Shown in pieces: positions 1 through 28,428 of a DNA stretch of 28,428 nt. Source of the stretch: a virus (lineage: Duplodnaviria; Caudoviricetes); the IMG/VR virus record IMGVR_UViG_3300037479_000623, positions 1-28,428 of that record, one strand, 5' to 3'. The notes under the pieces are model-generated. The model searched no databases and had not been told where the DNA came from. It worked only from the letters and a program-made list of their open reading frames with translations. Each line of letters starts with the position of its first letter. Position 1 is the first letter of the stretch. A program made the position numbers and the translations under genes.

Positions 1-309
1 GTCGGGCATCGGCAGCGAACGATGCCGCCTCTGCAACGGAACCGGCTTGTAGGGGATCGGCTCTGTCGGGTCCGGTTGATGCCCTGCCAGCTGGATGGGT
101 GAAGACGGGGCGTCACTGGGCTCATGTGCAACGAACAACCCCTGCGCGGCTGGCGCTTTGACGTCGTGCAAGACGGGGGGCCGCAAGGACCGACCCGGCT
201 TTGCGCGTCGCATCCTCTGCCGCTCCTCGCGGTCGAGCATCTCGTAGATGCGCCGGGCGGCGAGGTCGATGCTGCCGGGGCGAGGGGGCTGGATCGGCCG
301 GAAGGGCAT
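1..309 (-). CDS. Putative capsid-cargo/effector protein with scaffold-like N-terminal leader (partial, runs off window start)
   Basis: Not in ORF track. Hand translation from ATG at 309 with AGGAG RBS upstream: MPFRPIQPPRPGSIDLAARRIYEMLDREERQRMRR..., open for 103 codons to position 1. Leader nearly identical to that of 20210..21238. Confidence 0.8.
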   Translation of the reverse strand, partial: MPFRPIQPPRPGSIDLAARRIYEMLDREERQRMRRAKPGRSLRPPVLHDVKAPAAQGLFVAHEPSDAPSSPIQLAGHQPDPTEPIPYKPVPLQRRHRSLPMPD

Positions 310-342
310 GGTTCGGACTCCTGTCTTAGTTAGGGGTGACTG

Positions 343-1626
343 CTACACGATGCCGCGGTTGTCGTAGCGGAGCGGCGGCATCTTTTCGTCGCGCGTCTCG
401 CGCAGGCCCATGGCGAGGTAGCGCAGAGCATCGGCGGCGTCGCTCGACCAGTCGTGCAGCGGCCGGTCGTCGAAGCATTTGCGGCGCTCGTCCCACTCGC
501 GCCGGTAGACGCGCAGCGCCTCCAGGCCGGGCCGGCACTTCTCGGCATCGAACCAGCAGCGCGGCAGCAGCTTGCGCACCTCGTTGATGCCGTCCATGCG
601 CTCGTGCTGCGGCAGGACGCGCGGGCGCAGGCCGAGGTTCTGCAGCGTCTCGACCCGCGTCCGGCCGCCGCCCAGCTCCTGCACGCGCGCATCGTGCGGT
701 AGGATGTGATCGCCATAGGCATAGGGCTTCCGCCGCAGGACCTCGGCGTAGTGATCGAGGCCGACGCCGGACGATTCGTAGTAGTCGATCAGCCGCACCT
801 CGCGGCCGACCGGCTGGCAGAACCAGATGGCGGTGGCGTCGTTGACGCCGAGGTCCCAGGCGGTGTGCACGGGAACGCCGGGCTGCCAGGGCACGCGGGC
901 GATGCGGCCCTCGGCCTCGGCCGCGGCGATCAACGGGCCGTAATAGGCGCCGCGGACGGCGGCATCAAAGGAGCACTCGAATTCCTGCGCGTATTCCTCC
1001 TCCGACATCTCGGCGCGGGCGGCGGCCAGCTCGGCGGCATCGATAATGCCGGTCTCGCTGGCGCGATGGAGCCGGGCCAGCCAGGCCGGATCCGCCTTGG
1101 CGCGCTCGTAGAGCTCGTAGAGCGCGTTGCGGCCCATGGGCGTGCCGATGAAGACGGCCCAGCCGCGGCGGTCGGCGAGCGCCGGACGGATCACCTCGCT
1201 CCACACCCGCGGCCGCATCTGCGCGTATTCGTCGAGCACGACGCCGTCGAGATAGAGGCCGCGCAGCGAATCCGGATCGTCGGCGCCGTAGAGCGTGATG
1301 CGGGCGCCATTGCCGAGATCGCAGCGCAGCTCCGTCTCGTGATGGGTCGCGCCCGGCAGGCCGGCGGTGTAGCGCTTGAGGTAGTCCCAGGCGACCGCCT
1401 TGGCCTGGCGGTAGAAGGGCGCGATGTAGGCGAAGCGCGGCGCCTCGAGCTTGCACCAGCCGGCCCGGCGGACGAGCTCGCCGATGGCGAAGACCGTCTT
1501 GCCGAAGCGCCGGTGCGCGACCAGGACGTTGAAGCGCCGGAGGCTGCGGTGCAGCTCCAGCTGATGGGGGCGCGGCTCGTAGCGGCACTTTCGGTTCTCG
1601 TACATGCGTCTTGGCGTCTTGGTCAT
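343..1626 (-). CDS. terL: Phage terminase large subunit (ATPase + RNase H-like nuclease)
   Basis: Walker A HRRFGKT, Walker B VVLDE, GTPMG coupling motif, QEFECSF, nuclease WDLG..D.TAIW, LPHD and HDWSSDAADALRY. Start could be 1605. Confidence 0.95.
   Translation of the reverse strand: MTKTPRRMYENRKCRYEPRPHQLELHRSLRRFNVLVAHRRFGKTVFAIGELVRRAGWCKLEAPRFAYIAPFYRQAKAVAWDYLKRYTAGLPGATHHETELRCDLGNGARITLYGADDPDSLRGLYLDGVVLDEYAQMRPRVWSEVIRPALADRRGWAVFIGTPMGRNALYELYERAKADPAWLARLHRASETGIIDAAELAAARAEMSEEEYAQEFECSFDAAVRGAYYGPLIAAAEAEGRIARVPWQPGVPVHTAWDLGVNDATAIWFCQPVGREVRLIDYYESSGVGLDHYAEVLRRKPYAYGDHILPHDARVQELGGGRTRVETLQNLGLRPRVLPQHERMDGINEVRKLLPRCWFDAEKCRPGLEALRVYRREWDERRKCFDDRPLHDWSSDAADALRYLAMGLRETRDEKMPPLRYDNRGIV
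1463..1538. repeat. Direct repeat copy 1 (terL Walker A region), paired with 3378..3453
   Basis: 72/76 nt identical by manual alignment. Confidence 0.9.
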
Positions 1627-1929
1627 TCCTCATGTCCGTCGAATGGCCCACGTCGCAGCGAGCCGGTATGTCGGCGGCTCAATCTGATGCGACTCGAAGG
1701 GCACAACGGGATTCCCGCCCAGGCCTGAATGGTCCGAGCGCTGGCGTCTACCAACCAATTGGTATGGCTGTATTTTTTCGCGTGGACCCCTGATTTACCC
1801 GTCCCCGCGACCTAATTTTCGTTTGTTGAATTCCTCTTTTTAGGTATATCGGCTCCTTGTTGTCCTCTCCAATGATCCTAATTATCCAAGTATCAACTCC
1901 TGATTTTCCGAACCGCGCCTCAGCCACAA

Positions 1930-3150: not shown

Positions 3151-3168
3151 ATCCCGAGGCGGGCGATT

Positions 3169-3268
3169 TTCGTTGCACCTTTCTGAAACAATTTCTGGAC
3201 TTCTGGAATTTCACATACGAATCAGAGTGTTATTTGATTTTCACAGGGGCGATCTTTCGTTTCATGCC
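3169..3268. repeat. ~100-bp imperfect direct repeat copy A with IHF-consensus site at 3220..3232
   Basis: Shares GTTGCA..TGAAAC, GAATCAGAGTGTTATT and GCGATCTTTCGTTTCATGCC blocks with 3568..3666. AATCAGAGTGTTA fits WATCARNNNNTTR. Confidence 0.8.
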
Positions 3269-3298
3269 CGGAGTTCGCCGGCCTGCATGAGGGCAACA

Positions 3299-3782: not shown

Positions 3783-4220
3783 ATGCTCACCCTAAGATCC
3801 GCGACTGCCGATGATGCGCTGCCACTTCTTGATTGGCAGCGGCATGTGGAGACCCGGCGCTATGCACGCGACCCAACCGTCGCTAGCGAAACAGAGCACT
3901 TGGCGTGGTTCGCCAGGAAGCTTGAGAGTCCCGATTGCTTATTCTTTGTCGCTACGGATGGCGACAATCGAGTCGCCTCACTACGCCTCGATCGCCTTGG
4001 TGAAGAATGGGAACTGTCGATCGTCGTCGCGCCTGAGCTTCGTGGGCGAGGTATTGGTAAGCAAGTTCTCCGCCTGTTGATGGCGCACGCGCCTGGACCA
4101 CTTGTAGCCGAAGTTCTGCCTGGAAACGAGCCGTCGCACCGATTGTTCGACGTTTGCGGTTGGCAGCTCGGTGAAGACGGGCGCTATCGCTATTACTGCC
4201 TACCGAAAAAGACGACGTAG
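3783..4220 (+). CDS. GNAT family N-acetyltransferase (RimJ/PseH-like)
   Basis: LRSAT.DD...LLDW, EHLAWF, acetyl-CoA motif ELRGRGIG, N.PS.RLF..CGW. GAGG RBS upstream. Confidence 0.88.
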   Translation: MLTLRSATADDALPLLDWQRHVETRRYARDPTVASETEHLAWFARKLESPDCLFFVATDGDNRVASLRLDRLGEEWELSIVVAPELRGRGIGKQVLRLLMAHAPGPLVAEVLPGNEPSHRLFDVCGWQLGEDGRYRYYCLPKKTT

Positions 4221-5488
4221 ACCCAGGGTCGGTCAACTGTCGCAGTCACTCCATGCAAGGTTGTTCTCACCGGGAACGCACCGGCGGTCTTGCTGCCTGC
4301 GGCGTCCTGTCCGACCAGCGTCTGTTGCGCTGCGTCTGATGGATTCGTGATTGCCATACCCATTGCTGCATAGTTCGTATCTGCAAATGGCGTCGTGAAG
4401 GTGACTACGTACCTGCCCGTTGCTAGTCGTTGCACCGACGCAACGTTATGGCCGTCAATCGGCGAATTGGTGCCTGTGGCAGTTCCATCAAACGTGCACC
4501 ACGCCTTCGGATGCCCCGGATGCAGGTGCTGCCGTGCCGGCGAGGTGAACGCGGCGGTCGAGGTGGCGGCCTCCATTTCGGCTTCGGAGGCGGGGGCGAA
4601 GGCGATGCTGGCGCCGTTGACCTGGACGTCGGCGGCGTTGATCTTGCCGGGGCCGGGATCGCCGCCGGTCGGGTTGCCGACCTTGAGGCCCTGGCCGAGG
4701 GTCATGCGCTCGGCGAGCGCGCCGCTGACGAGGCTGTGGAAGGCGAGCTCGGCGTCCTCGCTGCCGGCGGTCGGGTCGAGTAGGCGGGCAACAAGCTTGG
4801 CGGCCACGTCGGTGCCGCCGCCGGCATCGCGCATCAACCAGCGGAGCGCCATCAGCAGGTCGTTCGCGGCCGGCGTCGGCGAGGCCCGGTCGAGGTCGAT
4901 GGCGGCCTTCTCGTCGGCGGAGGCGTCGGCCGAGCGGAAGACGTGCGCGCCGCTCCAGGTCATGGCCGCCGGCGCCAGGCCGGCCGGCGTCACCGCCTTG
5001 GTCGCGGTGCTGCCGGCTTCGGTCTCGGCCTGAGTCGCCAGGCGGACCGCGCCTGATGTGGCCGTGCCCGCGGGCGGGATCGCGCTGTCGGTCGCGCTGA
5101 GGATGCCGATGGCGATGGCGAGGGACTCGTTCTGCAGCGATCCGGAGTCCCAGGTCACCGTCACCGTCGTGTTGGTGGCAAAAGCCGCCGATGCGATGGT
5201 GCCGTAGATCGTGCCGGTCAGCGGCCCGCTCGCCTTCACGCGCCGGCCGGCATGGTAGACGGCCGTCACGTCGACGCCGTTGATGCTGAACGACGTGGGC
5301 GAGACGTAGGCGGTGGCGAAGGCGCCGTCGCCGTCGCCGTAGATGATCCACTGCGCGTCGTTGTACCACTCGCGAATGTCAGCCTGCACCTGGCGCATGC
5401 CGTCGTTCACCGCGGACGGCGCCATCCCCTCCGGGAAGAGGGCGGTGTTGTTGGCGGGTATCGTTGAATAGTCTTTGATGCCGGACAT
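4193..5488 (-). CDS. Tail fibre / receptor-binding protein
   Basis: N-terminal EGMAPSAVNDGMR anchor, two LAT/AS-x-AE...TPA fibre repeats, C-terminal KAWCTFDG..NVASV....TGRY.VTF..PFADTNY tip domain. TAGGAG RBS. Confidence 0.82.
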   Translation of the reverse strand: MSGIKDYSTIPANNTALFPEGMAPSAVNDGMRQVQADIREWYNDAQWIIYGDGDGAFATAYVSPTSFSINGVDVTAVYHAGRRVKASGPLTGTIYGTIASAAFATNTTVTVTWDSGSLQNESLAIAIGILSATDSAIPPAGTATSGAVRLATQAETEAGSTATKAVTPAGLAPAAMTWSGAHVFRSADASADEKAAIDLDRASPTPAANDLLMALRWLMRDAGGGTDVAAKLVARLLDPTAGSEDAELAFHSLVSGALAERMTLGQGLKVGNPTGGDPGPGKINAADVQVNGASIAFAPASEAEMEAATSTAAFTSPARQHLHPGHPKAWCTFDGTATGTNSPIDGHNVASVQRLATGRYVVTFTTPFADTNYAAMGMAITNPSDAAQQTLVGQDAAGSKTAGAFPVRTTLHGVTATVDRPWVYVVFFGRQ

Positions 5489-5533: not shown

Positions 5534-5611
5534 CGTCATTCCCGCGAAAGCGGGAATCCAGGACGACTGCTCCGTCGCTTGCCCTGGACCCCCGCTTTCG
5601 CGGGGGCGACG
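5534..5611. repeat. CGTC-type REP-like palindromic dimer
   Basis: CGTCATTCCCGCGAAAGCGGGAATCCA...TGGACCCCCGCTTTCGCGGGGGCGACG: two hairpins in inverted orientation, typical of alphaproteobacterial chromosomal repeats. Confidence 0.85.
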
Positions 5612-5660: not shown

Positions 5661-6575
5661 TCAAAACGCGCTCAGAAGGCCGCCGAGACCGGCACCGAGC
5701 AGCATCCCGAACGGTCCGCCGAAGGACCCCAAGGTGCCCGGAAAGGCCTTTTGGAGACCTTCGCCAATGCCGCCAAAGAGCTGGGCGCCAGTACCCATTC
5801 CGCCGAGGACGCCGGCGCCTGAGGAATAGGGCTGCGTCGTGCTCGTCGTGCCGCCGAAGTTGCCCTGGATGAGGGCCGCGTACTGGCGGAGCTTGTCGGC
5901 GGGCGTCTGCTGCTCGAAGTTCCAGCGCGCGACCTGGTCGTTGATGAGGGCCTGAGCCATGGCGTCGCGCGCGCGGCCGACGGCGTCGAGCTGGGCGATG
6001 TCGGCGTAGTCCTGCTGCGCGTAGGTCGGCGCCGCGTTGAGGGCGTTCAGCATGTGGGCGCGCTCGGCGGCGTAGTTCTGATAGCCGAGGTTGGCGGCGA
6101 GATCGCCGAGCTGCGCCGCCAGGTTCTGTTGCGCCTGCTGATGGGCGGCGAGATGCGCGCCGGAGCCGTAGCGCCCGGCCTGCGAGAAGGCGCTGTCGAT
6201 GCCCGGCGCGACCGCGGTCTGGTAGTTCCGCGTGACGCCGCGCGCCGTCGCGTCGATCGCGCCCTGGAGGTAGGGATTGGCGTTGAGATAGGCGCCGCCC
6301 AAAGTGCGGTCGAGCTCGGCGCCGCCGGCAGCGGTCAGCGGCGAGCCGCTCCGGGCGCGCGCCGCCTGCGCCTGCAGCGCCATCTCGCGCTCGGGCGAGA
6401 AGCCGGCGACCGTCTGACCCGGATAGTAGAGCGGGCCCGGCTGTTGATAGAGCCGGTGCGCCTCGGGGAAGATGCCGGCGATGCCCTTCTTCGGATCGCC
6501 GATCAGATAGGGGATCTGCTGCGACCACGGCTCCGACTTCTGAACCGTCGTCTGGGTGTCGCTGGGACCGGACAT
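5661..6575 (-). CDS. Internal virion / DNA ejection (pilot) protein
   Basis: True start at MSGPSDTQTTVQKSEPWSQQIPYL with AAGGAG RBS. NPYL, AGRYGSG and Gly-rich hydrophobic C-terminus. Position after tail hub genes. Confidence 0.72.
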   Translation of the reverse strand: MSGPSDTQTTVQKSEPWSQQIPYLIGDPKKGIAGIFPEAHRLYQQPGPLYYPGQTVAGFSPEREMALQAQAARARSGSPLTAAGGAELDRTLGGAYLNANPYLQGAIDATARGVTRNYQTAVAPGIDSAFSQAGRYGSGAHLAAHQQAQQNLAAQLGDLAANLGYQNYAAERAHMLNALNAAPTYAQQDYADIAQLDAVGRARDAMAQALINDQVARWNFEQQTPADKLRQYAALIQGNFGGTTSTTQPYSSGAGVLGGMGTGAQLFGGIGEGLQKAFPGTLGSFGGPFGMLLGAGLGGLLSAF

Positions 6576-6577
6576 GA

Positions 6578-6988
6578 TCAAATCTCCTTTTCGCAAAAGA
6601 CATGCGTGGTGGCGTAGCCGTGCCGCGCCAGGATGCGCGACCAGCCGGGGCGGGCGATGAGCTCCATGGCGGCGCAGCCCTGCGCCCTGGCCCAGGCCTC
6701 GATGACGGCGATGTAGCCCTGCCAGGCGCGGCGTCCGCGACCCGTGCAGATGCGGATGCGGCAGCACTTCTTGCGCGGATGGCAGACGATCTGCGTGACC
6801 GCCAGCGCGGCGACGGCGCCGTCCCAGGCCAGCCACAGCTGCAGGTCGCGCGCCTTGAGGGCGCCGCGGATGTCGTCCGGCGCGTCCTTGTCGCGCCCGC
6901 GGCGGCAGGCGGCGGCGATCAGCGGCTCGACCAGCGGCCAGACGGAATCGATCTCGGCCGCGGGAACGCCGACGAGTCGCGGCGTCAT
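6578..6988 (-). CDS. Conserved phage protein, GNAT-like fold (P22 gp14/T7 gp13 position)
   Basis: QLWLAW, WARAQGC..MELIARPGWSRIL..GY. Lies between tail hub and ejection protein. Confidence 0.65.
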   Translation of the reverse strand: MTPRLVGVPAAEIDSVWPLVEPLIAAACRRGRDKDAPDDIRGALKARDLQLWLAWDGAVAALAVTQIVCHPRKKCCRIRICTGRGRRAWQGYIAVIEAWARAQGCAAMELIARPGWSRILARHGYATTHVFCEKEI

Positions 6989-6991
6989 GCG

Positions 6992-7312
6992 TCAGCCGAG
7001 GATGACGTAGTCGAAGGCGCGATCGGTCTGCGCGTTGTCGGCATGGACAAGCGTGAACGCGCCCTTGTCGCGGGCCGACACGTAGATCGTGCCGTTGCCG
7101 ATCTCCGCCGCCGCGTTGGCGCTGACCGGCATGAGCAGGATGACGCTGGTTGCGGTCGCCCGCGGATCGATGACGACGGTGCTCGCGGCGTCGGGCGTCA
7201 GCGTGACCGATCCGGTGCAGTTGAGCTTGCCCTGCGCCAGGCGATTGACGACCGCTGCCACCTGCCGCGGATCGCCGCCGGCGACCGGAAGAGCCGGAAA
7301 GCCCGCGCTCAT
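6992..7312 (-). CDS. Small tail protein (106 aa)
   Basis: ATGA overlap with upstream stop. GKLNCTGSVTL ... FTLVHA..AQTDRAFDYVILG. Confidence 0.7.
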   Translation of the reverse strand: MSAGFPALPVAGGDPRQVAAVVNRLAQGKLNCTGSVTLTPDAASTVVIDPRATATSVILLMPVSANAAAEIGNGTIYVSARDKGAFTLVHADNAQTDRAFDYVILG

Positions 7313-8796
7313 CTGGCACCTGCCGCACTCGCCTCGATCTCGTCGATGCCCTGGATGTGGCGCCAGTCGGCGCCGGCGGCGACCTCGATGCGGGCGCGGA
7401 AGTAGCGACCGTTGGCGCGCACCGGACAATGTCCGAAGCCGTTGAGGGCCCGCGGCGGATCGAAGGAGACCGGATCGACCGTGCGGTTGCGCGTGCCCGT
7501 GCGGACGCTGACCGCGCCCGGCGCGGCCCCGCCGTCGACGAGAGGCCGCAGGCTGCGCAGAAGCGCGCGCCGGCCAGGGACGAGCTGCGCCTCGCCGGTG
7601 TCGACCGTCGCCTGCATGTTGGCGCCATTGAAAAAGGCGATGCGGTTCGCCGCAGTGAAGCCGGCGAGCAACAGGCGGCCCGAGCCGGTCCAGATCCGGT
7701 TGTCGAGCGAGAACGGCAGCTCGTCGAGGTTAGTCGAATAGCTGTCCAGGCCGTCGAGCGTGTAGCCGGCCTGCGAGGCCGCCTGGTGGACCATCTCCAT
7801 GGTCACCTCGGCGCGGCTCCAGCGGTCGGCCGTCCAGTTGTAGATCAGCAGGCGGTTCGGCGTGCCGCCGGTGAGGTCCGAGCCGGTGCCGGGATAGGAG
7901 ACGACGTAGAGCTTGTTGATCGGATCGATCGTCGCCGTGATCCGATGGAGGTAGGTCTGGTTGACGTCGTTCCAGAAGAACCGGTCGACGCGGTGGTGGC
8001 CGATGGCGCGCAGGCCCTGCGCACCCGGAAGCGCGAAGAAGCCGTCATCGGACAGAAAGAACGTGATGTCCTCGTGCCGCGCGATGGAGCCTTCGGCCGG
8101 CGTGCCGGTGCCGCGCGCGATCTCGTCGAACTGGAAGATCGCGGGCACGCCGACATAGGTCATGCGCTTGATCGAGCGCTCCTGGAAGACGAGGCCGTAC
8201 TCGCCGCCGACGATACCCATGACATAGCCGCCGTCGGGCAGATCCTGGAAATCGGCCTGGGTGGCCTGCGACGACGCCCAGGTCTCCGCGTTGTTGATGC
8301 CGGACCAGTGGACGCGCTGGGCCATCCCGCTCAACCGGCCCATGACGACGAAGTCGCGCACCGTCGCGACGAAGCGCGCGACGGGCGGCGTCCCGCCTAG
8401 GGCGGCGAAGCTGGTGGAGCTGCCGATCGCGAACTTCTGCGCCGCGTCGACGCCGTTGACGGCGATCACGAAGTCGCCGAACTGGGCGAACGACCAGCCG
8501 CCGTCGGCCGGCACGGCATAGGGACCGCCGGCGGTGCGGCTGACATCCGTCCAGCTGACGCCGGCATTGTCCCATTTGTAGAGCTTGGTCGCGTCGCCGG
8601 CGAAGTTGGCGATGGTGCCGCCCTGGCCGCGCGCCAGGATGGCGCCTTGCACGCGCGCAGCCATGGCGTTGCCGGTCGCGACCAGCGTCGGCAGCGGCCG
8701 ATAGCCGGCCGCGTCCGGAACAACGTTCCGCGCCTCGAGGGCGCCGGGATTCTCGAAATCCGGCAGATCGGGCTGCCAGGCCCCGATTGGGATCAT
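7309..8796 (-). CDS. Tail hub / DNA stabilisation protein (P22 gp10 or tail tubular B-like)
   Basis: 495 aa, beta-rich, GAWQPD start, VHWSGINN..TW, position downstream of adaptor. Confidence 0.75.
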   Translation of the reverse strand: MIPIGAWQPDLPDFENPGALEARNVVPDAAGYRPLPTLVATGNAMAARVQGAILARGQGGTIANFAGDATKLYKWDNAGVSWTDVSRTAGGPYAVPADGGWSFAQFGDFVIAVNGVDAAQKFAIGSSTSFAALGGTPPVARFVATVRDFVVMGRLSGMAQRVHWSGINNAETWASSQATQADFQDLPDGGYVMGIVGGEYGLVFQERSIKRMTYVGVPAIFQFDEIARGTGTPAEGSIARHEDITFFLSDDGFFALPGAQGLRAIGHHRVDRFFWNDVNQTYLHRITATIDPINKLYVVSYPGTGSDLTGGTPNRLLIYNWTADRWSRAEVTMEMVHQAASQAGYTLDGLDSYSTNLDELPFSLDNRIWTGSGRLLLAGFTAANRIAFFNGANMQATVDTGEAQLVPGRRALLRSLRPLVDGGAAPGAVSVRTGTRNRTVDPVSFDPPRALNGFGHCPVRANGRYFRARIEVAAGADWRHIQGIDEIEASAAGAR

Positions 8797-17051: not shown

Positions 17052-17079
17052 GTTCACTGTTCTTTGCTGAATTGGGATC

Positions 17080-19529: not shown

Positions 19530-20192
19530 ATGCCGGACCACCGCTCCGAACCGCCAGTAGCCGATATCCGCCTCCTCTTTCCGCGGTGGATTCGCCGTCT
19601 GCTGCTCTGTCTCGGGATCTTCGTTCTCTACTCTCAACTTGTCAGCGCCGGGCTAACGGCCGTGTATCGGTATTCCCCATGGGAGCCATCGTTTGTCGAT
19701 GGTCATGACCCCGAGATATTCGAGCCGGGCACCTACACGCTCCTGCAACCGCCCGAGGGCATCGGAAGCGCCGCCGACCTGCGGGCGGTCGGGTGGAGAA
19801 TCGAACTGTCACCGATCCGCTATGCGGCTTGGGCTGTGCTCGCCCCCGTCCTCGGCTCCGCCGCGCTGTTCTTCGCGTGGGCCGCACGGGCGGGCTGGCT
19901 ATCGCGATGCATGCTCTTTCTCGGCAGCTGTGTCGGCATAACGGCGGCGATCTACATCAAGATCTACGAGTTCGAGGAAGGAGCGATCGGCTGGGCCTTC
20001 TCGGCCGGCACGATGACGGACATGTTGCCTCCGAATCCGCCTCACCCGATCTACGGATACGCCGAACTCGTCGGCAGCTTGTTCCTTCCCATCGCCCTCT
20101 ATCTGGCGATCGCGCTCTTTCTCCTCGGCTCTGCAGGTTGGATGGTTGTCCGCTGGTCTTCAGGAGCAATTCGCCGCCGCCACAGCCCGTAG
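19530..20192 (+). CDS. Multi-pass membrane protein, candidate immunity
   Basis: About 4 hydrophobic segments. Convergent with 20210..21238 (17-nt gap). Confidence 0.65.
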   Translation: MPDHRSEPPVADIRLLFPRWIRRLLLCLGIFVLYSQLVSAGLTAVYRYSPWEPSFVDGHDPEIFEPGTYTLLQPPEGIGSAADLRAVGWRIELSPIRYAAWAVLAPVLGSAALFFAWAARAGWLSRCMLFLGSCVGITAAIYIKIYEFEEGAIGWAFSAGTMTDMLPPNPPHPIYGYAELVGSLFLPIALYLAIALFLLGSAGWMVVRWSSGAIRRRHSP

Positions 20193-20209: not shown

Positions 20210-21238
20210 TCAGCGCAGCCTGTCGATGTAGGCGTTGTACGCACCGATCGCTCGGAGCAGCCGTGGGTCGTTCGGACCGACCGCATGGGCCGGCAGTCCA
20301 TAGGGATATTGATAGCCGTCCGGAAGGTATCCCGCAGTCCAGTCCGGCCCATCCGGCCGATCGGGATTTGTGTACCAGTTGGTTCGCTCATCTCGCAGCT
20401 CCGGTGGTTGCGCAGCATGAGGGCGACCATAGGGGCGTTTCCAGTTGTCATCCTTCGGATTCTTGACCCATCGGTCTTCCGACAGCCAGGTAGGGCCGTA
20501 GGGGGCGAGCGTCGATGCCGGCTCGTATGTCGGCTTCCAGGCGCCGCTGCCATCGGCTGCGCTCCCGCTCATCGCTTTGCGCGCCGCGCTGACGACGTCC
20601 CGCCAGTCGCGCGCAAACCGGCCGATGGCAATGCCGACCTCGTTGTTGCGCCGGTCCATCGCTTCTTCGTCTTCCGGCTGGTCCTTCAACTGCCCTTCTT
20701 GTTCGTGAAGATCCAATATCTGCCGGGCGCGAGCTTCCCCGAACCGACGCGTCAGCTCTGCCGCCCAAAGAACGTGACGGTAGGCATCCGCCGGGCCACG
20801 CTCGCGGCCGGGCATCTGCGAACCCACCATCTCCGATTGGGCAGCACCGCCGCCGACAAAGTGCTTGTACTCGTCGCGGCCCACACCGCGCAGCAGGTCG
20901 CCAATCCGCTCGAACGGCCCGTATTCGGCCGGTGGCCCCAGATGCGTTTCAGGCTCGCGCCGCGATGGCCGATGTCCTTGGGGCCGGCTGCCGGGATGTC
21001 CGGCGCGTTGGTTGGTACTTCCCGGTGCACGTGGGGCTTTGCGCTCCGCGCCGAAGCCATTCTCAACGGGTTCCCGCGATGCCGTGTTGGGACGCTGGCG
21101 CGGACCATCCGCGGCGTGCTTGGGCCTGCCGGGACCGCGCCTTTTCTCGCGCTCCTCGCGATCGAGCATCTCGTAGATTCGCCGGGCAGCCTGCTCCACG
21201 CTGCCCGACCGCCCGCCTCGGGCCCCCATGAACTGCAT
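20210..21238 (-). CDS. Putative effector with scaffold-like leader and DUF6973-like domain
   Basis: AAAGGA RBS, leader GSVEQAARRIYEMLDREER, disordered linker, then DAYRHVLW...HE...MDRRNNEVG motif (DUF6973-like from memory, seen at toxin C-termini). Confidence 0.75.
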   Translation of the reverse strand: MQFMGARGGRSGSVEQAARRIYEMLDREEREKRRGPGRPKHAADGPRQRPNTASREPVENGFGAERKAPRAPGSTNQRAGHPGSRPQGHRPSRREPETHLGPPAEYGPFERIGDLLRGVGRDEYKHFVGGGAAQSEMVGSQMPGRERGPADAYRHVLWAAELTRRFGEARARQILDLHEQEGQLKDQPEDEEAMDRRNNEVGIAIGRFARDWRDVVSAARKAMSGSAADGSGAWKPTYEPASTLAPYGPTWLSEDRWVKNPKDDNWKRPYGRPHAAQPPELRDERTNWYTNPDRPDGPDWTAGYLPDGYQYPYGLPAHAVGPNDPRLLRAIGAYNAYIDRLR

Positions 21239-21457: not shown

Positions 21458-22333
21458 TCAATCATTTTCGCGCGCACTGACGCGAGTAGCGGTACCCCAA
21501 CTCCGTCGCACTGCCTCGGCATCGATTACAGAAGGCTGGACCGAGGGGTACTGGATATTGTGGCCTGTTTCCAGTTCCCCGGGAGGCGGCGGCGTATCGC
21601 CGAAATCAGCGCCGTACCGCTCATCGATGCGCCGGCGCAGACCTCGGTACCACTCGCTTTGTGGCGGCTGCCAGTCGTCGCAAGCACGGTACGAACCGCA
21701 GAGCATTCGTCGCGGGTGTGCCCGGCACCACTCCAAGGCATGATGGCCAAGCCAGATGTCGCCTCCCTTCGCGTCCTCCATCAGCTGGACTTCCCAGTCC
21801 ATGAGCTTGTTGCCGAGCGGATGGCCACACTTGCATCGGTTCGTCGTCAGCTCCCCAATGATCCTCCAAACACGGCGGACGATGGAGAGGAAGGTCTTGT
21901 GCTCCGGGTTCCATGGTTCGTAGGAGCCGAAGATCTCGCCATAGTTGATCGTCGGCGGATCGTAGGAGATGCGGGGAGAGCCGTAGAACGACCAATCCCA
22001 CACCGACCTCTGGTAGTGGAGATGTCCGTGCCGAGGGATGTTCTTGAACTCGATCCAGCCGCCGTCCTGTGGATCGAAGCCCGGCACCGGTCGCCAGTCC
22101 GAGGAATCCGGGACAACAATGTATGTGGTCTCTCCCGGAACGTCGGTGAGGGAGTCGAACGCACTAAGGGAACATGGCGGAATGCGACTGCCCGAGTAGA
22201 TCAGATACTTGATAGTTGGGAATCTCTCACGCAATGCTTCCGAAAACATCGCCTCGTCCTTCGCCGAGAAAAGGACGAAGCGACGCTTGTGCCGTTGCGG
22301 GCGATGATCGATCCAGTTAGCCGGATTTTTCAT
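21458..22333 (-). CDS. Hypothetical protein, immunity-like paralog 2
   Basis: Paralog of 22430..23239 (shared WLGHHALEWCR..PRRML.G.YR.CDDW.PP.SEWY..LRR). Confidence 0.75.
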   Translation of the reverse strand: MKNPANWIDHRPQRHKRRFVLFSAKDEAMFSEALRERFPTIKYLIYSGSRIPPCSLSAFDSLTDVPGETTYIVVPDSSDWRPVPGFDPQDGGWIEFKNIPRHGHLHYQRSVWDWSFYGSPRISYDPPTINYGEIFGSYEPWNPEHKTFLSIVRRVWRIIGELTTNRCKCGHPLGNKLMDWEVQLMEDAKGGDIWLGHHALEWCRAHPRRMLCGSYRACDDWQPPQSEWYRGLRRRIDERYGADFGDTPPPPGELETGHNIQYPSVQPSVIDAEAVRRSWGTATRVSAREND

Positions 22334-22433
22334 TTTCTCGATCGTTCGAATGCCACCAATGGTCTGCCATCGTTAGTCCAGACTTTGGCGGATTAGGTAT
22401 ATATTCAACGGGAATCTCCCCTCCGACTTTCAT
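22317..22433 (-). other. 38-codon ORF coupling the two paralogs, possible orphan toxin C-terminal remnant
   Basis: ATGA overlap with the upstream stop. MKVGGEIPVEYIPNPPKS...; its end overlaps the next start. Confidence 0.35.
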
Positions 22434-23239
22434 ACAACTCTGAAGCCCAGGTACGCCGCGCTCGGCTCTCGGAGTTCCGCAGGGCGTGGGGGCGGTTCGC
22501 CAATGCCAAGCCCGTATTTTAGTTCCACTTGCCGGCGCAGCGATTGATACCATTCGCTGTTGGGCGGCTCCCAATCGTCGCAGGGACGATAGCAACCGTC
22601 GAGCATCCGCCGGGGGTTACGCCGGCACCATTCAAGCGCGTGGTGTCCAAGCCAGAGATTGTGCCGCTTGGCGTCGCGTGTCCGCAGCGCATCGGTCCCG
22701 TGCTCGATCTCGTTGCTGCGGGGCGTTCCGATCTTGAAGCGATTCGTTCCGAGGCGCGACACAATGCGGAAGATCTGCCGCATGTACAAAATGAACTGTT
22801 CCGAGGACGAGTCATCTGGGTCGTACCTACGCCCGATATCTCCCTCGAGGAGCGTTGGTAGCTCAAAGCCCAGCTGATGGGGCCGTGGCTGCCACCCACT
22901 CATGCCCCAATCCCATCGGGATCTAAAGAATACGGTACTCTGAGCTGGCAGATTACAAATCTCCATCCACGTCAAGCGCGCCGCGCCCGGCTCGAAACGT
23001 GGCCGCCACGGCATCGTGGCCGGATTCACAATGACGACCGAATCACTTGTTATGCCCGGCCACTCCGTGTGTACGTCGTCCGGCCCCACCATCCGTTGCC
23101 CATCGAGAAAGACGACCGACGGGAAGATGCCCCTGATTGCAAGGGCGAACATCAGCTCGTCAACGCCGGTAAAAACGAAGCGACGGACCAGCTGACGGAC
23201 GCGTCCGGCGTGCTTCAGTTGATATGACCAGGATGGCAA
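22430..23239 (-). CDS. Hypothetical protein, immunity-like paralog 1
   Basis: GGGAGG upstream of TTG start. Paralog of 21458..22333, downstream of the toxin-like gene. Confidence 0.72.
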   Translation of the reverse strand: MPSWSYQLKHAGRVRQLVRRFVFTGVDELMFALAIRGIFPSVVFLDGQRMVGPDDVHTEWPGITSDSVVIVNPATMPWRPRFEPGAARLTWMEICNLPAQSTVFFRSRWDWGMSGWQPRPHQLGFELPTLLEGDIGRRYDPDDSSSEQFILYMRQIFRIVSRLGTNRFKIGTPRSNEIEHGTDALRTRDAKRHNLWLGHHALEWCRRNPRRMLDGCYRPCDDWEPPNSEWYQSLRRQVELKYGLGIGEPPPRPAELREPSAAYLGFRVV

Positions 23240-23518: not shown

Positions 23519-24967
23519 TTATTCATCTGACTCCTCATCAATGGGTCTGTGTTTACGCCTGTCAGGACGTTTCGGGACTCCGACAACACTGTCGCCACTT
23601 CGCAGGTGCTTGTAGAAGAGCTTAAGCCAATCCCTGCCAGTGATCTTACCCTTGGAGTCGGTGTTGACAGTCTCAAAGATCGTTCGTCTTCCGCCACGAT
23701 TTGATGCGACCAGATCGCCGTAGAACGACCCTGTATTCCCCGAACCACCCCACGTACCCTTCCCAAACCCAGGGAATTGCTTTTCCTTGAGTTTGCCGCC
23801 GGATTCAACCGTGAAGCCGAGATCTTCCAGCTGCTCGTGCATAGCCCTTAGCTGCTCCCGCGTCTCCGGTTTACCTCGGCGTCCCCAGGGATTGCGAATC
23901 GATCCAACAAGCACTCCTGGACCGCTGGCGCTGAGTCCTTCCCAGAAGATGTCCCAGGGATCACGCGGCGGTGCGTCGCTGGCGCTGGCCTGACGAATCA
24001 GTTCGTCGAGAGCCCGGTAGCGGGCTGAGACGGGACCTTCGAGCGTGAACTCGTTCCGCCTGTAGACGACCCCATCCGGTCCGACGAAGTAGAATGTATC
24101 TGCGATGTCCGGGAGTTCGCCGAATTCCTCGAACGCGGCCTGCAGGCTGTCGGGTGCCGGCTCGGCGAGGCGCCAAGCGGTCGGGTTGACACGCTGGGCC
24201 CGAAGGAATTCTCGCGCGAGAACGTCATATTCCGACGGCGGTGAGTTCGCAGCATGGACATCTGAGATCTTTTCCAGCGTCGCCGGATCGTAGTTGACCG
24301 CTGTCTGATCCTGCTCATCAAGGACATCGGCAGCCGTGCCTCCAGCCAAGACTGTGATGCCTTCAGCGCCATGGATTGCTGCAAGGTCCGCTAGTGGCTC
24401 TTCGACGCTCTGCGTCGAGAATCCGCCTACGGCGGTCTCGAAACCGCGACGAAGCCGGGCGGCAAGAGGTTCTTCGATGGCTCCGGTCCGCTGATAGAGG
24501 TTGCGATCGGATCCCACGAAGTAGCGCGCACCGTCGAACTTGCCGGATTGGCGAAACCGGGTCTGCTCGGCTTCGTCAGCTGGAGCCGCGTCGAGATGTG
24601 CATCAAGAGGAACTCTTTGGCTGAAGGCCAGCCGCTCGGCTGGGGTGCGCGGTCCATGCTTGAGGAACTCGAGGCCGCCCCGATCCAGACCATCGCGGAA
24701 CATCGTGACGACGGCATCCGGCAGCACATTGCTATCATCACGTGCTCGTCGCCTTTGAGCCGTTGTGCTCGGCGAGCGTGCTGTTCGCACGGAATTCGAA
24801 CTCTCCGGCCCACGTGGCGCACCCCAAAGAGCCGGTGAGAGCAGACCAAACTGCGGCGGTCTCGGGCCCGACCATCCAACAGGACGCAGGCGAGCTATCG
24901 GAACCGGGCGAGCGAATGTGTAGTCCGGCCGCACGCCCTGCGGCCGGTCGACGAGCCAGTTGGGCAT
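23519..24967 (-). CDS. Polymorphic toxin-like protein with putative PD-(D/E)xK-type C-terminal nuclease
   Basis: TAGGAG RBS, internal repeat YFVG.D...Y.R, basic Gly-rich C-terminus NPWGRRGKP..EKQFPG..GSFYGDLVA...IFETVNT..G..T.RD. Confidence 0.62.
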   Translation of the reverse strand: MPNWLVDRPQGVRPDYTFARPVPIARLRPVGWSGPRPPQFGLLSPALWGAPRGPESSNSVRTARSPSTTAQRRRARDDSNVLPDAVVTMFRDGLDRGGLEFLKHGPRTPAERLAFSQRVPLDAHLDAAPADEAEQTRFRQSGKFDGARYFVGSDRNLYQRTGAIEEPLAARLRRGFETAVGGFSTQSVEEPLADLAAIHGAEGITVLAGGTAADVLDEQDQTAVNYDPATLEKISDVHAANSPPSEYDVLAREFLRAQRVNPTAWRLAEPAPDSLQAAFEEFGELPDIADTFYFVGPDGVVYRRNEFTLEGPVSARYRALDELIRQASASDAPPRDPWDIFWEGLSASGPGVLVGSIRNPWGRRGKPETREQLRAMHEQLEDLGFTVESGGKLKEKQFPGFGKGTWGGSGNTGSFYGDLVASNRGGRRTIFETVNTDSKGKITGRDWLKLFYKHLRSGDSVVGVPKRPDRRKHRPIDEESDE

Positions 24968-25079: not shown

Positions 25080-25343
25080 CTACTGTCGCTGCCGCTCGCG
25101 CGCGGCAAGCTGGGCGTCTGCCAGCTTGCCCGTCTCCAGCACGGCGGTCAGATGCGCGCGCAGGCGCCCGAGCAGCTTCAGCATCGACCACAGCCGCTCG
25201 CGCTCGGCCGTGGCGTCGTCGGCCGTCGCGGCCCAGGCCTCGCGGAGCGCTGCGTCCACGGTCGCAAACGCCTCCTGCAACAGCGAGTCGTCGAGCAGGC
25301 GCCGCGCCTGCTCGCCGCGCCGCGACTCCTCTTCCAAGGTCAT
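25080..25343 (-). CDS. Conserved small phage protein following portal
   Basis: ATGA overlap with the portal stop. RGEQARRLL...L.EAF, ERERLW, ETGKLA. Confidence 0.8.
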   Translation of the reverse strand: MTLEEESRRGEQARRLLDDSLLQEAFATVDAALREAWAATADDATAERERLWSMLKLLGRLRAHLTAVLETGKLADAQLAARERQRQ

Positions 25344-27328
25344 GCCAGCCCCGCCTGCCGCGCCTTGAGGGCGAGCGCGTCACGCTTGTGGGCGACGTCG
25401 GCGGCGAGCTTGGCCTGGTCGAAGGCTAGGCCGGCGGCCGCGCGCTGGCGGTCGAAGGCGAGGCGCGCGGCGCTCAGCTGTGCCTGCTGCTGAATGGCGA
25501 CGAGCGTGGGATCCGGCGGCGGCGGTGCCGGTGGGGCGACCGGGTGCTGGGCGGGGTCCGTGAAGTAGGAGTCGGCCGACTTGAGGCCGGCGTTCTCCAC
25601 CATCCGGGCCAACGTGTTGTAGACGTTCTCGAGCCGGACGAGCGGGCCGTCGACGCCGCCCTGCATCCGGATCGCCTGCACCTGGATCTCCAGCAAGCTG
25701 CGCAGATGCATGAGCATCTGGTCCTTGTTGCCCGTGCCGAGGCCGACGGCGATGGAGACGTCCATCTGCGTCGACCACGCGCGCGGGTCCATGGGAATCC
25801 AGCGGTTGCGCAGGCGGATGATGCGCGGCGCGTTCTGATGGCGGTTCACGAGCTCGAGTATCTTGCGGAAGAGGTCCTTGACCCCCGTCTCCGCGAACAC
25901 GCGGGCGATCAGCTCCACCCGCTGCTGCGCGGCGGTCATGATCTGGTTGATGCCCGTAGCCGTCTTGTTGAGGCTGTCGGCATCGAGGCCCTGCATGTAG
26001 CGGCTCACGCCGGTCCGGCTTTCGCGCACGCCGTCGAGATACTCCAGCACCGGGAAGGCCTGGGCGGCGACCAGCGGCGTATCGAGCGGTAGGATGTGCC
26101 CCTGGCCCGGCAGCGCGCCGTTCTTCAGCCGCACGATGCCGCCCGGCCGCGCCGTCATCATGTCGTCGAGGTTGACCTGATCGCTGATGATGTGGCGGCC
26201 GTTGTTGCTGAGATAGAGATTGTCGAGGATCTGGCGCAGGATCGTCGATTTGATGAGCTGCAGGTCCATCACCAGGTCGGCGATCGACAGGCCGAAGAAG
26301 CGGTGCGGCATGATGATGGGGGTGAGGGAGACGAACGGCAGCGGCCCGTCCCACGGCTCGTTGTCGAGGATCTCCGGGCCGCTGCCGGCGACCGTCACCT
26401 TGCGACGTTCGGCGATGCCGTCGCCGTCCCAGTCGCAGCGGATGTAGCACTCGGTGATCCAGACCTCGCGCATGGCGCGGTTCGGCCCATCGGCGGCAGT
26501 GCGATCGTTGTCCTCGATGTTGAAGCGCTCGCGGCGCTCGCCCGTTGGGTCGTCGTCCTCAGCGCCGGGCAGGCGTTCGATCAGGCTGCGGTCATAGCCC
26601 ATCTCGATCAGTTCCGAGACGGTCTTCCGCAGCCGATGGGCGACAAAGGGCGCATCCTCGATCGAGCGCGCGCGCCGCGAGATCAGAAACTCCTCCGGCG
26701 GCACGGTCATGATGCGGACGGCGCCGCTGCGCCGCCGTCGCTTGACCACGATGTCGTGATAGGTCACCGCCGCCTCGGCCGGCAGGCCGTTCGGCCCGCT
26801 GACGACCCCGATGTCCTGATATTCGCGGTGGGCGATCGGCTCGACCTCCGGATCGGCCAGGATGAGCTGTAGCTCCTCGAAGGTCTTGCGCGTGTAGCTC
26901 TCGCGGGCGGCCGTTTCGCCTTCCTCCCACCAGAGCTTGGCGATGCCGTTCTTCTGCAGCAGCGCGTCCTTGAACAGCGTATAGAGGATGAGGAATCCCG
27001 GATTGTCGCGGGTGAATATCCAGTTGACGTATTCCGTCGCCTGCTTGGCCACCTCCTCGTCCTCCGGCCCGGCTGGCTCGAAGCGGACGACCTCGTCGCC
27101 GGCGGTGAATATCTTGAGCAGTCCCGGGAGGATCCACTCGATGGTGTCCGCGACCTCCGTCGAGACCACCTTCGAGCGCCCCTCCACCTCGTTGCCGAAG
27201 GGTTCGCCGAGGTAGTAGCGCAGCGCCTTGCGCCGCTGCTCGCTGAGCTCGCCGCCGAGATGCGCGAGCGAGTCGGCGATTTCGGTCGCCAGGATGGACT
27301 TGAGTTCGGACTCTGTCATGTCTGTCAT
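25340..27328 (-). CDS. Portal protein
   Basis: YYLGEPFGNEVEGRSKVVSTEVADTIEWILP, FKDALLQKNGIAK, VPPEEFLI, PHRFFG.S, IARVFAETG. AGAGGA RBS before ATG 27328. Confidence 0.95.
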   Translation of the reverse strand: MTDMTESELKSILATEIADSLAHLGGELSEQRRKALRYYLGEPFGNEVEGRSKVVSTEVADTIEWILPGLLKIFTAGDEVVRFEPAGPEDEEVAKQATEYVNWIFTRDNPGFLILYTLFKDALLQKNGIAKLWWEEGETAARESYTRKTFEELQLILADPEVEPIAHREYQDIGVVSGPNGLPAEAAVTYHDIVVKRRRRSGAVRIMTVPPEEFLISRRARSIEDAPFVAHRLRKTVSELIEMGYDRSLIERLPGAEDDDPTGERRERFNIEDNDRTAADGPNRAMREVWITECYIRCDWDGDGIAERRKVTVAGSGPEILDNEPWDGPLPFVSLTPIIMPHRFFGLSIADLVMDLQLIKSTILRQILDNLYLSNNGRHIISDQVNLDDMMTARPGGIVRLKNGALPGQGHILPLDTPLVAAQAFPVLEYLDGVRESRTGVSRYMQGLDADSLNKTATGINQIMTAAQQRVELIARVFAETGVKDLFRKILELVNRHQNAPRIIRLRNRWIPMDPRAWSTQMDVSIAVGLGTGNKDQMLMHLRSLLEIQVQAIRMQGGVDGPLVRLENVYNTLARMVENAGLKSADSYFTDPAQHPVAPPAPPPPDPTLVAIQQQAQLSAARLAFDRQRAAAGLAFDQAKLAADVAHKRDALALKARQAGLA

Positions 27329-27361
27329 AGCAATCCTCTTGAACACGCAACGAACTGAACG

Positions 27362-27763
27362 CTACAGCAAGCACTCGACCCGAGGTCGCGGCAGTGCCGA
27401 TGCGCCGCTCGCCCTCCCGGGCGAACGCCTCCGGATGTCGTGACCTGGTCTCGAAGGTCGGACGGAGCCGTGCGGACTCAGTTGGCATCGGCTCGGATCG
27501 AGGACTTCCCGCGCTCGGACTGATCCGCGAGAGGCGGCGTCTCGCAGGATCGAGAGCGCCTGCTCACGGTCCGCAGCATCGGTGGTGCCGAACAGCCACG
27601 CGCGACCGATCTCGTAGGTCTTCTGGGCAACCGGGACCGCGCACCGCCGGTCAGATGCAACTCCAGGAGGAGCGATGTTGGTGCGACGGGTTACCCGCGG
27701 GAACCATGAATCAGAAGGGGCCGCGCGCTCCAGGCACACGACCCCATCACATAATTTTTGCAT
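27362..27763 (-). CDS. Possible small or decayed protein with one Sel1-like repeat
   Basis: YEIGRAWLFG....DREQALSILRDAASRGSVRA. Start uncertain because it overlaps the promoter. Confidence 0.35.
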   Translation of the reverse strand: MQKLCDGVVCLERAAPSDSWFPRVTRRTNIAPPGVASDRRCAVPVAQKTYEIGRAWLFGTTDAADREQALSILRDAASRGSVRAREVLDPSRCQLSPHGSVRPSRPGHDIRRRSPGRASGASALPRPRVECLL

Positions 27764-27793
27764 TCTGGGACATATCGCCTATTTCTGTCAAGA
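27735..27793 (-). promoter_or_regulatory. Late promoter of head module
   Basis: TTGACA (27791-27786), 18-nt spacer, CAGAAT, then ATTATGTGATG. Same spacing as 13715..13773. Confidence 0.72.
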
Positions 27794-27819
27794 ACAATCT
27801 TTGCTTCGGCGAAAAAAAT

Positions 27820-28428
27820 TCACTCGGCCGCTTGCGTAAGGCTCGGGCTCTTGTGCAGGTCCATGCGGCCGAGACGGCCGGCGGCGCGGCCGTAGCAGGC
27901 GACGAGAACGTCGAGGCCGAGGCAGACCGCCGCGAGTTCGGCTTGGTCCGCCCGCCAGGCGGATTTCGGTCGGCGACGGCCTGTGTCGAGAAAGCGCGGC
28001 ATACGCCCGAAGACGGCCAGGTTCTCGGTGGCGTCGCAGATGCGCCGGCCGGCCGCCAGCAAGTGGTTCTTTCCGCGACGAAATAGGGATTCGATCTGGG
28101 CAAGATCCTCCTCCGTCAGGTCATGGCGATCGGCGTAGCCCGCCGCGAGGGCGCCGAACAGATAGCTGCAGTTCACCTGGGTCCGGCCGATCGCCCGTCC
28201 ATAAAGAAATGCGTAGTAGCAGCCGGCTTCATGCTGCTCGCGGCTGACGATCCCGCGGGCCAGCATCACGCCCAGCGGGTATTCGGCCAGCGCCGGATCC
28301 CTGCCCGCCGCGAGCCGCGCGCGATGCGCCTGCAGCTCCGGCGTGCCGCGGTCGACAACCGGCCGGTCGCAATACGGTCGGCCCCGCCGTCCCTGTCCCT
28401 GCCAGCTTTGGTTGCGCTGATCACTCAT
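27820..28428 (-). CDS. DUF6456-like / Q-like late transcription activator or antiterminator
   Basis: PL..MLARG.VS.EQHEAG..Y at the N-side and LGLDVLVACYG at the C-side. Lies directly upstream of the late promoter. Confidence 0.62.
   Translation of the reverse strand: MSDQRNQSWQGQGRRGRPYCDRPVVDRGTPELQAHRARLAAGRDPALAEYPLGVMLARGIVSREQHEAGCYYAFLYGRAIGRTQVNCSYLFGALAAGYADRHDLTEEDLAQIESLFRRGKNHLLAAGRRICDATENLAVFGRMPRFLDTGRRRPKSAWRADQAELAAVCLGLDVLVACYGRAAGRLGRMDLHKSPSLTQAAE

What the first reader, a model, noticed from the sequence alone, without database searches (positions are those of the whole stretch)
1..28428. Domesticated podophage-like particle coupled to toxin/immunity cassettes
Seen: structural genes are intact, but no terS, integrase, replication genes or holin are recognisable. 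At least four accessory cassettes interrupt the head operon, and a chromosomal REP lies in the tail operon. Known: RcGTA-type GTAs are siphovirus-like, tailocins and eCIS lack capsids, and MuF toxins are fused to a minor head protein. Inference: a host-maintained short-tailed particle acting as a capsid-based polymorphic toxin delivery device and/or a new GTA type.
Basis: inference. Interest (0 to 1): 0.85.

Follow-up and report, generated by a model that had tools for sequence, protein, structure and literature searches.

The report
Domesticated phage capsid carrying swappable toxins
A group of Alphaproteobacteria (Dongiaceae and relatives) keeps a short-tailed phage particle gene cluster at one fixed chromosomal site, studded with swappable enzyme-plus-partner gene pairs, and it likely packs these probable antibacterial toxins into its capsid and fires them into competing cells, which would be a new kind of bacterial weapon built from a phage head.

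Summary
Observation confirmed and extended. The window is an SU10/LUZ24-type podophage structural operon with five cargo genes. Its closest relatives (capsid 82-94% identical) lie at one fixed site, between acuI plus a LexA-like repressor and murA, with lysis genes but no integrase or replication gene. Repressor, activator and terL occur in 77, 51 and 52 of 83 genomes of the order. Host and particle trees match for 9 taxa, and dN/dS is 0.08-0.37. So the cluster is host-domesticated, not an ordinary prophage. Cargo genes join a few N-terminal modules to swapped C-terminal domains (restriction-fold and HNH nucleases, M23, SLT, GH108, DUF6973). The neighbouring partner gene follows the C-terminal domain, as in polymorphic toxin systems. 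New: 13 cargo proteins begin with a helix that copies the scaffold's C-terminal helix, a likely capsid-loading tag. Tagged cassettes also sit as orphans elsewhere in host chromosomes. The two large ejection proteins of related phages are missing, and terS was not found in the window's own lineage. Particle formation, loading, toxicity and DNA packaging are untested. Best reading: a capsid-based toxin delivery device derived from a GTA-like locus (0.55).

The parts
27820..28428 (-). Probable late-operon activator/antiterminator (DUF6456-related, Q-like), 202 aa
   Evidence: Atlas feature hit to a cluster with 43% DUF6456; weak Foldseek row Q21, E 2.9, prob 0.30; next to the repressor in relatives
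25340..27346 (-). Portal
   Evidence: PF23899, E 2.8e-231
25080..25343 (-). Conserved 87-aa head-operon gene
   Evidence: phrog_8161; conserved in relatives
23519..24967 (-). Cargo 1: GLL motif, two copies of a 117-aa N-domain, C-terminal restriction-fold (PD-(D/E)xK-like) nuclease domain
22430..23239 (-). Partner (likely immunity) of cargo 1, paralog a
   Evidence: this family follows this C-terminal domain in 4 of 4 loci
21458..22333 (-). Partner (likely immunity) of cargo 1, paralog b
20210..21238 (-). Cargo 2: scaffold-like N-terminal helix tag (about 21140-21211) plus DUF6973 domain
19530..20192 (+). Hydrophobic partner (likely membrane immunity) of cargo 2
   Evidence: same family beside the same C-terminal domain in 3 of 3 loci
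18331..19383 (-). Head scaffolding protein; its C-terminal helix (about 18334-18381) is the one echoed by the cargo tag
   Evidence: phrog_3927; repeat D6
17120..18076 (-). Major capsid protein
   Evidence: PF17236, E 4.9e-102; SU10 head chain 7z45
16383..17057 (-). Cargo 3: helix tag plus M23 peptidase
   Evidence: PF01551
15445..16362 (+). Partner of cargo 3 with a signal-peptide-like start (likely periplasmic immunity)
   Evidence: same pair found as an orphan in G079, 59% and 54% identical
13881..15326 (-). Cargo 4: GLL-rich N-module, unknown C-terminus, no partner gene; may be a non-toxic internal virion protein
   Evidence: no partner in 5 of 5 loci; same N-module fused to nuclease-type ends in L081 and L231
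13292..13624 (-). Conserved 110-aa gene
   Evidence: phrog_3982
12514..13143 (-). Adaptor
   Evidence: PF24175
9068..12514 (-). Three variable genes between adaptor and nozzle (likely decoration or receptor binding; one has a polysaccharide lyase 14 hit)
7309..8796 (-). Virion structural protein, taken as the nozzle by position
   Evidence: phrog_3287, E 2e-80
6578..7312 (-). Two small conserved tail-operon genes (106 and 136 aa)
5661..6575 (-). DNA ejection/pilot protein, the only ejection gene kept in the tail operon
   Evidence: phrog_4287
5534..5611 (.). Host REP-like palindromic element
4193..5488 (-). Tail fibre
   Evidence: phrog_11355
343..1626 (-). Large terminase, intact but moved out of its ancestral place before the portal; a 76-nt fragment of it lies at 3378-3453
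   Evidence: phrog_2
1..309 (-). Cargo 5: start with helix tag, cut by the record end

Best explanation
The window is the core of a podophage-derived particle cluster whose closest relatives sit at one fixed, vertically inherited chromosomal site, and it likely works as a toxin delivery device that loads swappable antibacterial enzymes into the capsid and ejects them into related cells. Steps: (1) Shown in relatives: a LexA-like repressor faces a Q-like gene that heads the operon; inferred: rare de-repression switches on head, tail and lysis genes and the producer lyses. (2) Shown: cargo proteins start with a copy of the scaffold's terminal helix, or with GLL motifs like those of phage ejection proteins; inferred: these tags dock them inside the procapsid. 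(3) Inferred: the tail fibre binds kin-like cells, and cargo exits through the nozzle with the pilot protein. Wall-degrading cargo would act in the periplasm; nuclease cargo, which mostly carries a second copy of the N-domain, would need to cross the inner membrane. (4) Shown: each C-terminal domain has its own neighbouring partner gene; inferred: the partner gives immunity, so strains with other cassettes are killed. The intact terL may still package host DNA, so a dual role as a gene transfer agent is not excluded.
For: Same flanks in G001, G002, G004, G068 and G072 (both sides) and in G003, G005, G083, L082 (upstream side). Repressor in 77 of 83, Q-like gene in 51 of 83, terL in 52 of 83 genomes. 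Host and particle trees share all 6 inner splits for 9 taxa, weakest support 52 and 69. dN/dS 0.08-0.37 for particle genes, with dS close to flanking host genes; three cargo or partner genes have dN/dS 0.14-0.25 with dS 1.4-2.4. 72 cargo proteins fall in 19 C-terminal clusters, and the partner family follows the C-terminus across different N-modules. Pfam hits: Tox-HNH-HHH, M23, SLT, GH108, DUF6973. Restriction-fold matches for cargo 1. Helix tag in 13 cargo proteins, always 8-12 residues after a Met; hhalign probability 73 and 80 against scaffold C-termini, at most 12 for 14 control windows. Orphan cassettes at three other sites in G003 and one in G079. Two long ejection-type genes follow the pilot in 17 of 24 outside loci and in none of 12 fixed-site loci.
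Against: No experiment shows particles, loading or killing. Most cargo and all partner genes lack a named toxin or immunity family. The cargo 1 model is weak (pTM 0.44, best Z 6.2), and its C-terminus found no longer RHS- or CDI-type relative. Cargo 4 has no partner. Cassettes were found only in the window's capsid clade: the N-domain in 5 of 83 genomes; G072 and G068 carry unrelated metabolic insertions instead. Many genomes of the order have lost or broken the structural genes. Loss of long ejection proteins also fits a GTA that delivers DNA only to the periplasm. The tag is short, and the capsid protein's own N-arm scores on the same profile.
Confidence: 0.55

Rival explanations
1. A podophage-type gene transfer agent whose job is DNA transfer; the cassettes are selfish toxin-antitoxin-like passengers that use the strong operon and are not loaded into particles.
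For: Fixed site, RogA-like repressor architecture, Q-like activator, terS-terL kept across the order. Three different capsid modules (SU10-, P22- and BPP-1/T7-type) sit behind the same regulator and terminase. Lineages without cassettes exist.
Against: Does not explain the scaffold-like tag at cargo N-termini, including on orphans, nor periplasm-acting enzymes with no evident export signal paired with membrane or periplasmic partners. terS was not found and terL is displaced in the window's lineage.
Confidence: 0.25
2. A gene transfer agent in which the cargo are particle-borne helpers, not weapons: wall-opening enzymes that replace the lost ejection proteins and help DNA reach the recipient, with partners protecting the producer.
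For: Many cargo domains degrade peptidoglycan. Related phage-like loci have SLT domains in the genes around the pilot. Long ejection genes are missing.
Against: Nuclease-type ends (HNH-HHH, restriction fold) and 19 exchangeable C-terminal types with matched partners fit conflict better than a housekeeping entry role.
Confidence: 0.14
3. An ordinary or decaying prophage that carries morons.
For: IMG/VR classes the record as a provirus; a CI-like repressor and lysis genes are present in relatives; some relatives are deleted or frameshifted.
Against: Same site across an order, tree congruence, dS like host genes, a host REP inside, no integrase or replication gene between the flanks. The temperate relative phiM5 has an integrase, a primase-polymerase and three internal virion proteins.
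Confidence: 0.05

Closest known systems
MuF polymorphic toxins / proposed MuF phage-capsid secretion system (PMC3482391, PMC5576092)
   Same: Toxin domains with adjacent immunity genes in a head-packaging module, predicted to ride inside a capsid.
   Different: No MuF domain in any cargo scanned; MuF toxins are reported only in temperate phages and prophages, whereas this locus is fixed and vertically inherited, uses scaffold-like or GLL tags, and has orphan cassettes on the chromosome.
Alphaproteobacterial GTAs: CcGTA/RcGTA (RogA, GafYZ; PMC9632790) and BaGTA (BrrG antiterminator; bioRxiv 10.1101/2024.11.20.624540)
   Same: Domesticated particle genes without integrase, LexA-like repressor (HTH plus S24), Q-like activator, purifying selection.
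   Different: SU10-type capsid and portal with a short tail; repressor adjacent to the operon; no RogA box GGAA-N4-TTCC upstream in 28 loci (two had short upstream stretches); polymorphic cargo cassettes; DNA packaging not shown.
LUZ24/SU10-like podophages, e.g. Sinorhizobium phage phiM5
   Same: Capsid 54% identical; same order of portal, small gene, scaffold, capsid, adaptor.
   Different: phiM5 has an integrase, a replication gene and three internal virion proteins; this cluster has none of the first two and only the pilot.
Tailocins and eCIS/PVC (recalled)
   Same: Host-domesticated phage machines released by lysis that kill or inject effectors.
   Different: Those lack heads and use long or contractile tails; here head genes are intact and conserved and no sheath or tube gene was found.

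Membership tests
MuF toxins | N-terminal MuF domain on the toxin | tested here: not met
   No MuF hit in Pfam or PHROGs for window cargo or in Pfam for relatives' cargo
MuF toxins | Encoded by temperate phages or prophages | tested here: not met
   Fixed, vertically inherited site with no integrase in relatives
Gene transfer agent (general) | Particle genes vertically inherited, no integrase or self-replication | tested here: met
   shown in relatives, the window's own flanks unread
Gene transfer agent (general) | Packages random host DNA and transfers it | not testable with these tools
   Needs particles; terL intact, terS not found in this sublineage
RcGTA/CcGTA family | HK97-type siphophage head and tail genes | tested here: not met
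   SU10-type portal, capsid and adaptor
RcGTA/CcGTA family | RogA repressor acting through GGAA-N4-TTCC | tested here: inconclusive
   Same domain layout; box in 0 of 28 upstream regions; no direct comparison with RogA was made
BaGTA | bgtA-K genes plus a run-off replication module | not tested
   BaGTA sequences were not fetched; no replication gene was seen between the flanks
Polymorphic toxin system | Conserved N-terminal module with variable C-terminal domains | tested here: met
Polymorphic toxin system | Adjacent partner gene specific to the C-terminal domain; orphan cassettes | tested here: met
   cargo 4 type has no partner
Polymorphic toxin system | Toxicity and neutralisation by the partner | not testable with these tools
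   Needs an assay
Tailocin / eCIS | No capsid; contractile or long tail | tested here: not met
   Intact capsid, scaffold and portal under purifying selection
Temperate LUZ24/SU10-like prophage | Integrase, replication genes, full set of ejection proteins | tested here: not met

The most novel reading that the evidence does not exclude
A new class of bacterial weapon: a host-owned phage head that has largely given up DNA packaging in this lineage (terS not found, terL displaced, DNA-conduit proteins gone) and is filled with protein toxins recruited from anywhere on the chromosome by a short tag that mimics the scaffold's coat-binding helix, all run from an ancient regulator-terminase platform whose capsid module has been swapped several times.
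Probability: 0.35. Interest if true: 0.95.

Novelty: categorically new. Interest (0 to 1): 0.85.

Why it matters
If true, bacteria have domesticated a phage head as a toxin-delivery organelle, alongside T6SS, eCIS and tailocins. It would turn the capsid-delivered toxin idea, proposed for MuF but unproven in the papers seen, into a direct test in a cultured strain (Virgifigura deserti carries an intact locus). A natural 20-residue capsid-loading tag would be useful for packing proteins into phage-like particles. Even if only a GTA, it is an order-wide podophage-type locus not found in my literature searches, and it shows capsid modules being replaced under one regulator. It also means records like this one are likely miscounted as proviruses.

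Tried and rejected
The read check of window 1-8000 could not be run, so the terL relocation is not confirmed by reads; it is supported only by the same Q-to-portal gap in G001, L082, L217, L081 and G080. No RNA holder listed. DNA pattern for the tag: 0 hits in viral contigs. Q-like protein: no significant Foldseek match; the wide fold search stayed busy. A colicin-M-like look of C-terminal cluster 1 (recalled resemblance, not in the window) was not confirmed by PDB or Pfam. Partner family: no PDB, Pfam or NCBIfam name. Pilot versus phiM5 gp28: no similarity. RogA box absent. A scaffold N-terminal motif alignment could not be built by my pattern, so that resemblance rests on weak HMM rows. Pairwise identity correlation with acuI was only modest, 0.12-0.65. 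Earlier findings of the scan: nothing relevant. Literature searches: no paper for Dongiaceae + gene transfer agent (130), DUF6973 + toxin (92), or domesticated + prophage + polymorphic toxins + capsid + Alphaproteobacteria (66); searches listed no paper describing this system by title or abstract start.
Full report
1. What the window holds. The window is a whole IMG/VR record classed as a provirus. A protein identical to part of 23519-24967 is on record from a 42,793-nt contig, so flanks exist but could not be read. On the minus strand, from the right end, lie a 202-aa gene, SU10-type portal, an 87-aa gene, scaffold, SU10-type capsid, a 110-aa gene, SU10-type adaptor, three variable genes, a virion structural protein (nozzle by position; my label), two small genes, a DNA-ejection/pilot protein and a tail fibre. 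Then come a GNAT gene, a terL fragment, an AAA_14-DUF4143 gene, an intact terL and a truncated cargo gene. Core genes are about 65-72% GC and the inserts 55-64%. No integrase, replication, terS or lysis gene was found. The palindrome at 5534-5611 is a host repeat: 10, 20 and 29 matches in G001, G079 and G080, none in G002 and G003, none for the reversed control. One Logan contig covers 20000-25828 without a difference, so the two upstream cassettes are not an assembly join.

2. Domestication. The capsid protein has a tight group of relatives at 82-94% identity in alphaproteobacterial genomes (Dongiaceae MAG G001, Virgifigura deserti G002 and others), then a gap to about 63%. That group is one clade with support 100 among 155 capsid proteins. 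In G001 and G002 the cluster lies between ppdK-ygfZ-pyrC-thiolase-acuI plus a divergent HTH-S24 repressor and (dcd)-murA-DUF2948-infA-maf-rng (flank names are my reading of the translations). G004 (split over two contigs), G068 and G072 show both flanks; G003, G005, G083 and L082 the upstream flank. Endolysin, spanin and small holin-like genes follow the fibre. None of 30 further genes between the flanks hit an integrase or replication family. In the 83 genomes of this order the repressor was found in 77, the 202-aa gene in 51, terL in 52, the SU10-type capsid in 14 and a PF12236 portal in 26 (tallies include the unpublished G070, on which nothing else rests). Behind the same repressor, activator and terminase stand three capsid types: SU10, P22-like (G069, G077) and BPP-1/T7-like (G024 annotated; 12 genomes have repressor, activator, terL and PF12236 portal within about 10 kb on one contig, by coordinates). 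Some genomes keep only remnants (G007, G021, G023, G082). For nine taxa the tree of flanking host genes and the tree of particle genes share all six inner splits; the regulator tree differs at one weak split. The long branch of G068/G072 and one search suggest that their SU10 module is a separate acquisition. dN/dS is 0.08-0.37 for particle genes, and dS is similar to that of acuI, pyrC and thiolase in the same pairs. These results exclude an ordinary prophage for the relatives and make it very unlikely for the window, which is 86-94% identical to G001 in activator, portal and capsid. The repressor has RogA's domain layout (PMC9632790, passages read) but no RogA box. The 202-aa protein is DUF6456-related; Q21 is a weak but best-probability fold row; BaGTA uses a Q21-like antiterminator (bioRxiv 2024.11.20.624540, abstract and introduction read).

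3. The cassettes. In 14 close loci the gaps terL-portal, 87aa-scaffold, scaffold-capsid and capsid-110aa hold variable gene pairs, and more came from metagenomes. A 117-aa N-domain family has only 51 members among 1.84 billion representatives and is fused to M23, SLT, GH108, DUF6973 and Tox-HNH-HHH ends in 9 of 48 proteins scanned, besides two weak PG-binding or repeat hits; most ends have no Pfam name. Clustering 72 cargo proteins gave 19 C-terminal groups. The neighbouring gene follows the C-terminus, not the N-module: cargo 1 type 4 of 4 loci, window-type DUF6973 3 of 3, GH108-like 3 of 3, HNH-HHH 2 of 2, second DUF6973 type 2 of 2. Two groups have two partner types each, the G002 M23 partner did not match the window's, and the cargo 4 type has no partner in 5 of 5. 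The cargo 1 end resembles Tox-REase families by features (0.85-0.89, leads only). Its low-confidence model (pTM 0.44) matches PD-(D/E)xK nucleases such as Hjc, VRR-NUC and FAN1 at Z 5-6. Cargo and partner genes are under purifying selection with dS two to four times that of core genes, as expected for shuffled cassettes. Toxicity itself is inferred from this architecture, which matches the definition in PMC3482391 (passages) and PMC5576092 (abstract).

4. A likely loading tag (new). Repeat D6 links the last codons of the scaffold with the starts of two cargo genes: scaffold RSGRTEDAARLIEEML, cargo 2 RSGSVEQAARRIYEML, cargo 5 RPGSIDLAARRIYEML. A profile built only from 59 of 109 distant scaffold C-termini ranked cargo 2 fourth among non-labelled hits in 2.6 million positions, behind two unlabelled scaffold-like ends and one capsid N-arm; in 200 shuffles of the window the second-best score never exceeded 12.6 against 16.3 observed. 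A profile of six cargo motifs then found held-out cases (L085, G082, the window M23 gene), and a genome search found four more on orphan cassettes. All 13 have a Met 8-12 residues upstream. Their profile aligns to distant and close scaffold C-termini with probability 73 and 80, against at most 12 for 14 control windows. In P22 the scaffold's C-terminal helix-loop-helix is the coat-binding element (PMC9965877, passages); that the same holds here is inferred. Other cargo start with GLL(D) motifs, as do many long genes after the pilot in related phage loci. Orphan cassettes lie among housekeeping genes at three sites in G003 and one in G079, which fits a host-run system and not morons.

5. What the particle has lost. 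Two long ejection-type genes follow the pilot in 17 of 24 outside loci (7 unclear or lacking) and in none of 12 fixed-site loci; phiM5 has three internal virion proteins. In the window's sublineage terL no longer precedes the portal. A 12-sequence terS profile found the control G002 but not G001, G079, G080, G004 or the window; L081 keeps a terS-like gene. These genomes are incomplete, so absence is not shown. The pattern fits protein delivery, but also a GTA that leaves DNA in the periplasm (recalled for RcGTA).

6. Verdict. Host-domesticated particle: about 0.9. Cassettes are toxin-immunity pairs: about 0.75. Loaded and delivered by the particle: 0.55 overall. It is not a MuF system, RcGTA, tailocin or eCIS by the tests above; GTA function is open. 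My ten literature searches showed no description of this locus, but most subscription papers are outside the library, and PMC9254644 (passages) covers RcGTA-type genes only. Supplements were not read.

Noticed in passing
L198:9140-18968 (G024) and G025, G026, G029, G030, G037-39, G041, G043, G047, G074: The same repressor-activator-terS-terL platform drives a BPP-1/T7-type podophage module (PF12236 portal, PF19821 capsid); G069 and G077 have a P22-type module. The capsid module at this site has been replaced several times.
   Followed up: partly
window 17120-18076, residues about 14-28, and related capsid proteins: The capsid protein's own N-arm scores on the scaffold C-terminal helix profile, which suggests that scaffold, cargo tag and N-arm compete for one site.
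   Followed up: no
window 343-1626; G001:C3:198-1445 and C7:45008-46248; G079 C91, C426; G080 C409, C164: In this sublineage terL is out of the operon and present as two dispersed copies per genome, some beside toxin-antitoxin-like genes.
   Followed up: partly
window 23519-24967 and P0003-P0038: Cargo with nuclease-type ends mostly carry a second, degenerate copy of the 117-aa N-domain, while wall-enzyme cargo carry one; possibly an inner-membrane crossing module.
   Followed up: no
L005:1634-2845, L006:8928-10385, L217:7618-9132, L083:10574-12145: A common unnamed C-terminal domain (13 proteins) with membrane partners; looks colicin-M-like from memory, not confirmed by PDB or Pfam.
   Followed up: partly
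window 3180-3234 and 3580-3634; 1930-3150: Two 55-nt AT-rich direct repeats flank the terL fragment, next to an AAA_14-DUF4143 gene; probably the scar of the terL move.
   Followed up: no
L320, L326, L327 (other Alphaproteobacteria): The Q-like gene was found in 24 of 301 sampled class genomes and sits beside a related repressor in at least three outside the first order sample, so the platform may be older than the order.
   Followed up: partly
L029:7517-8071: An RNA 2'-phosphotransferase (KptA) gene lies directly after a ParB-like-looking cargo and its DUF7660 partner inside the head operon.
   Followed up: no
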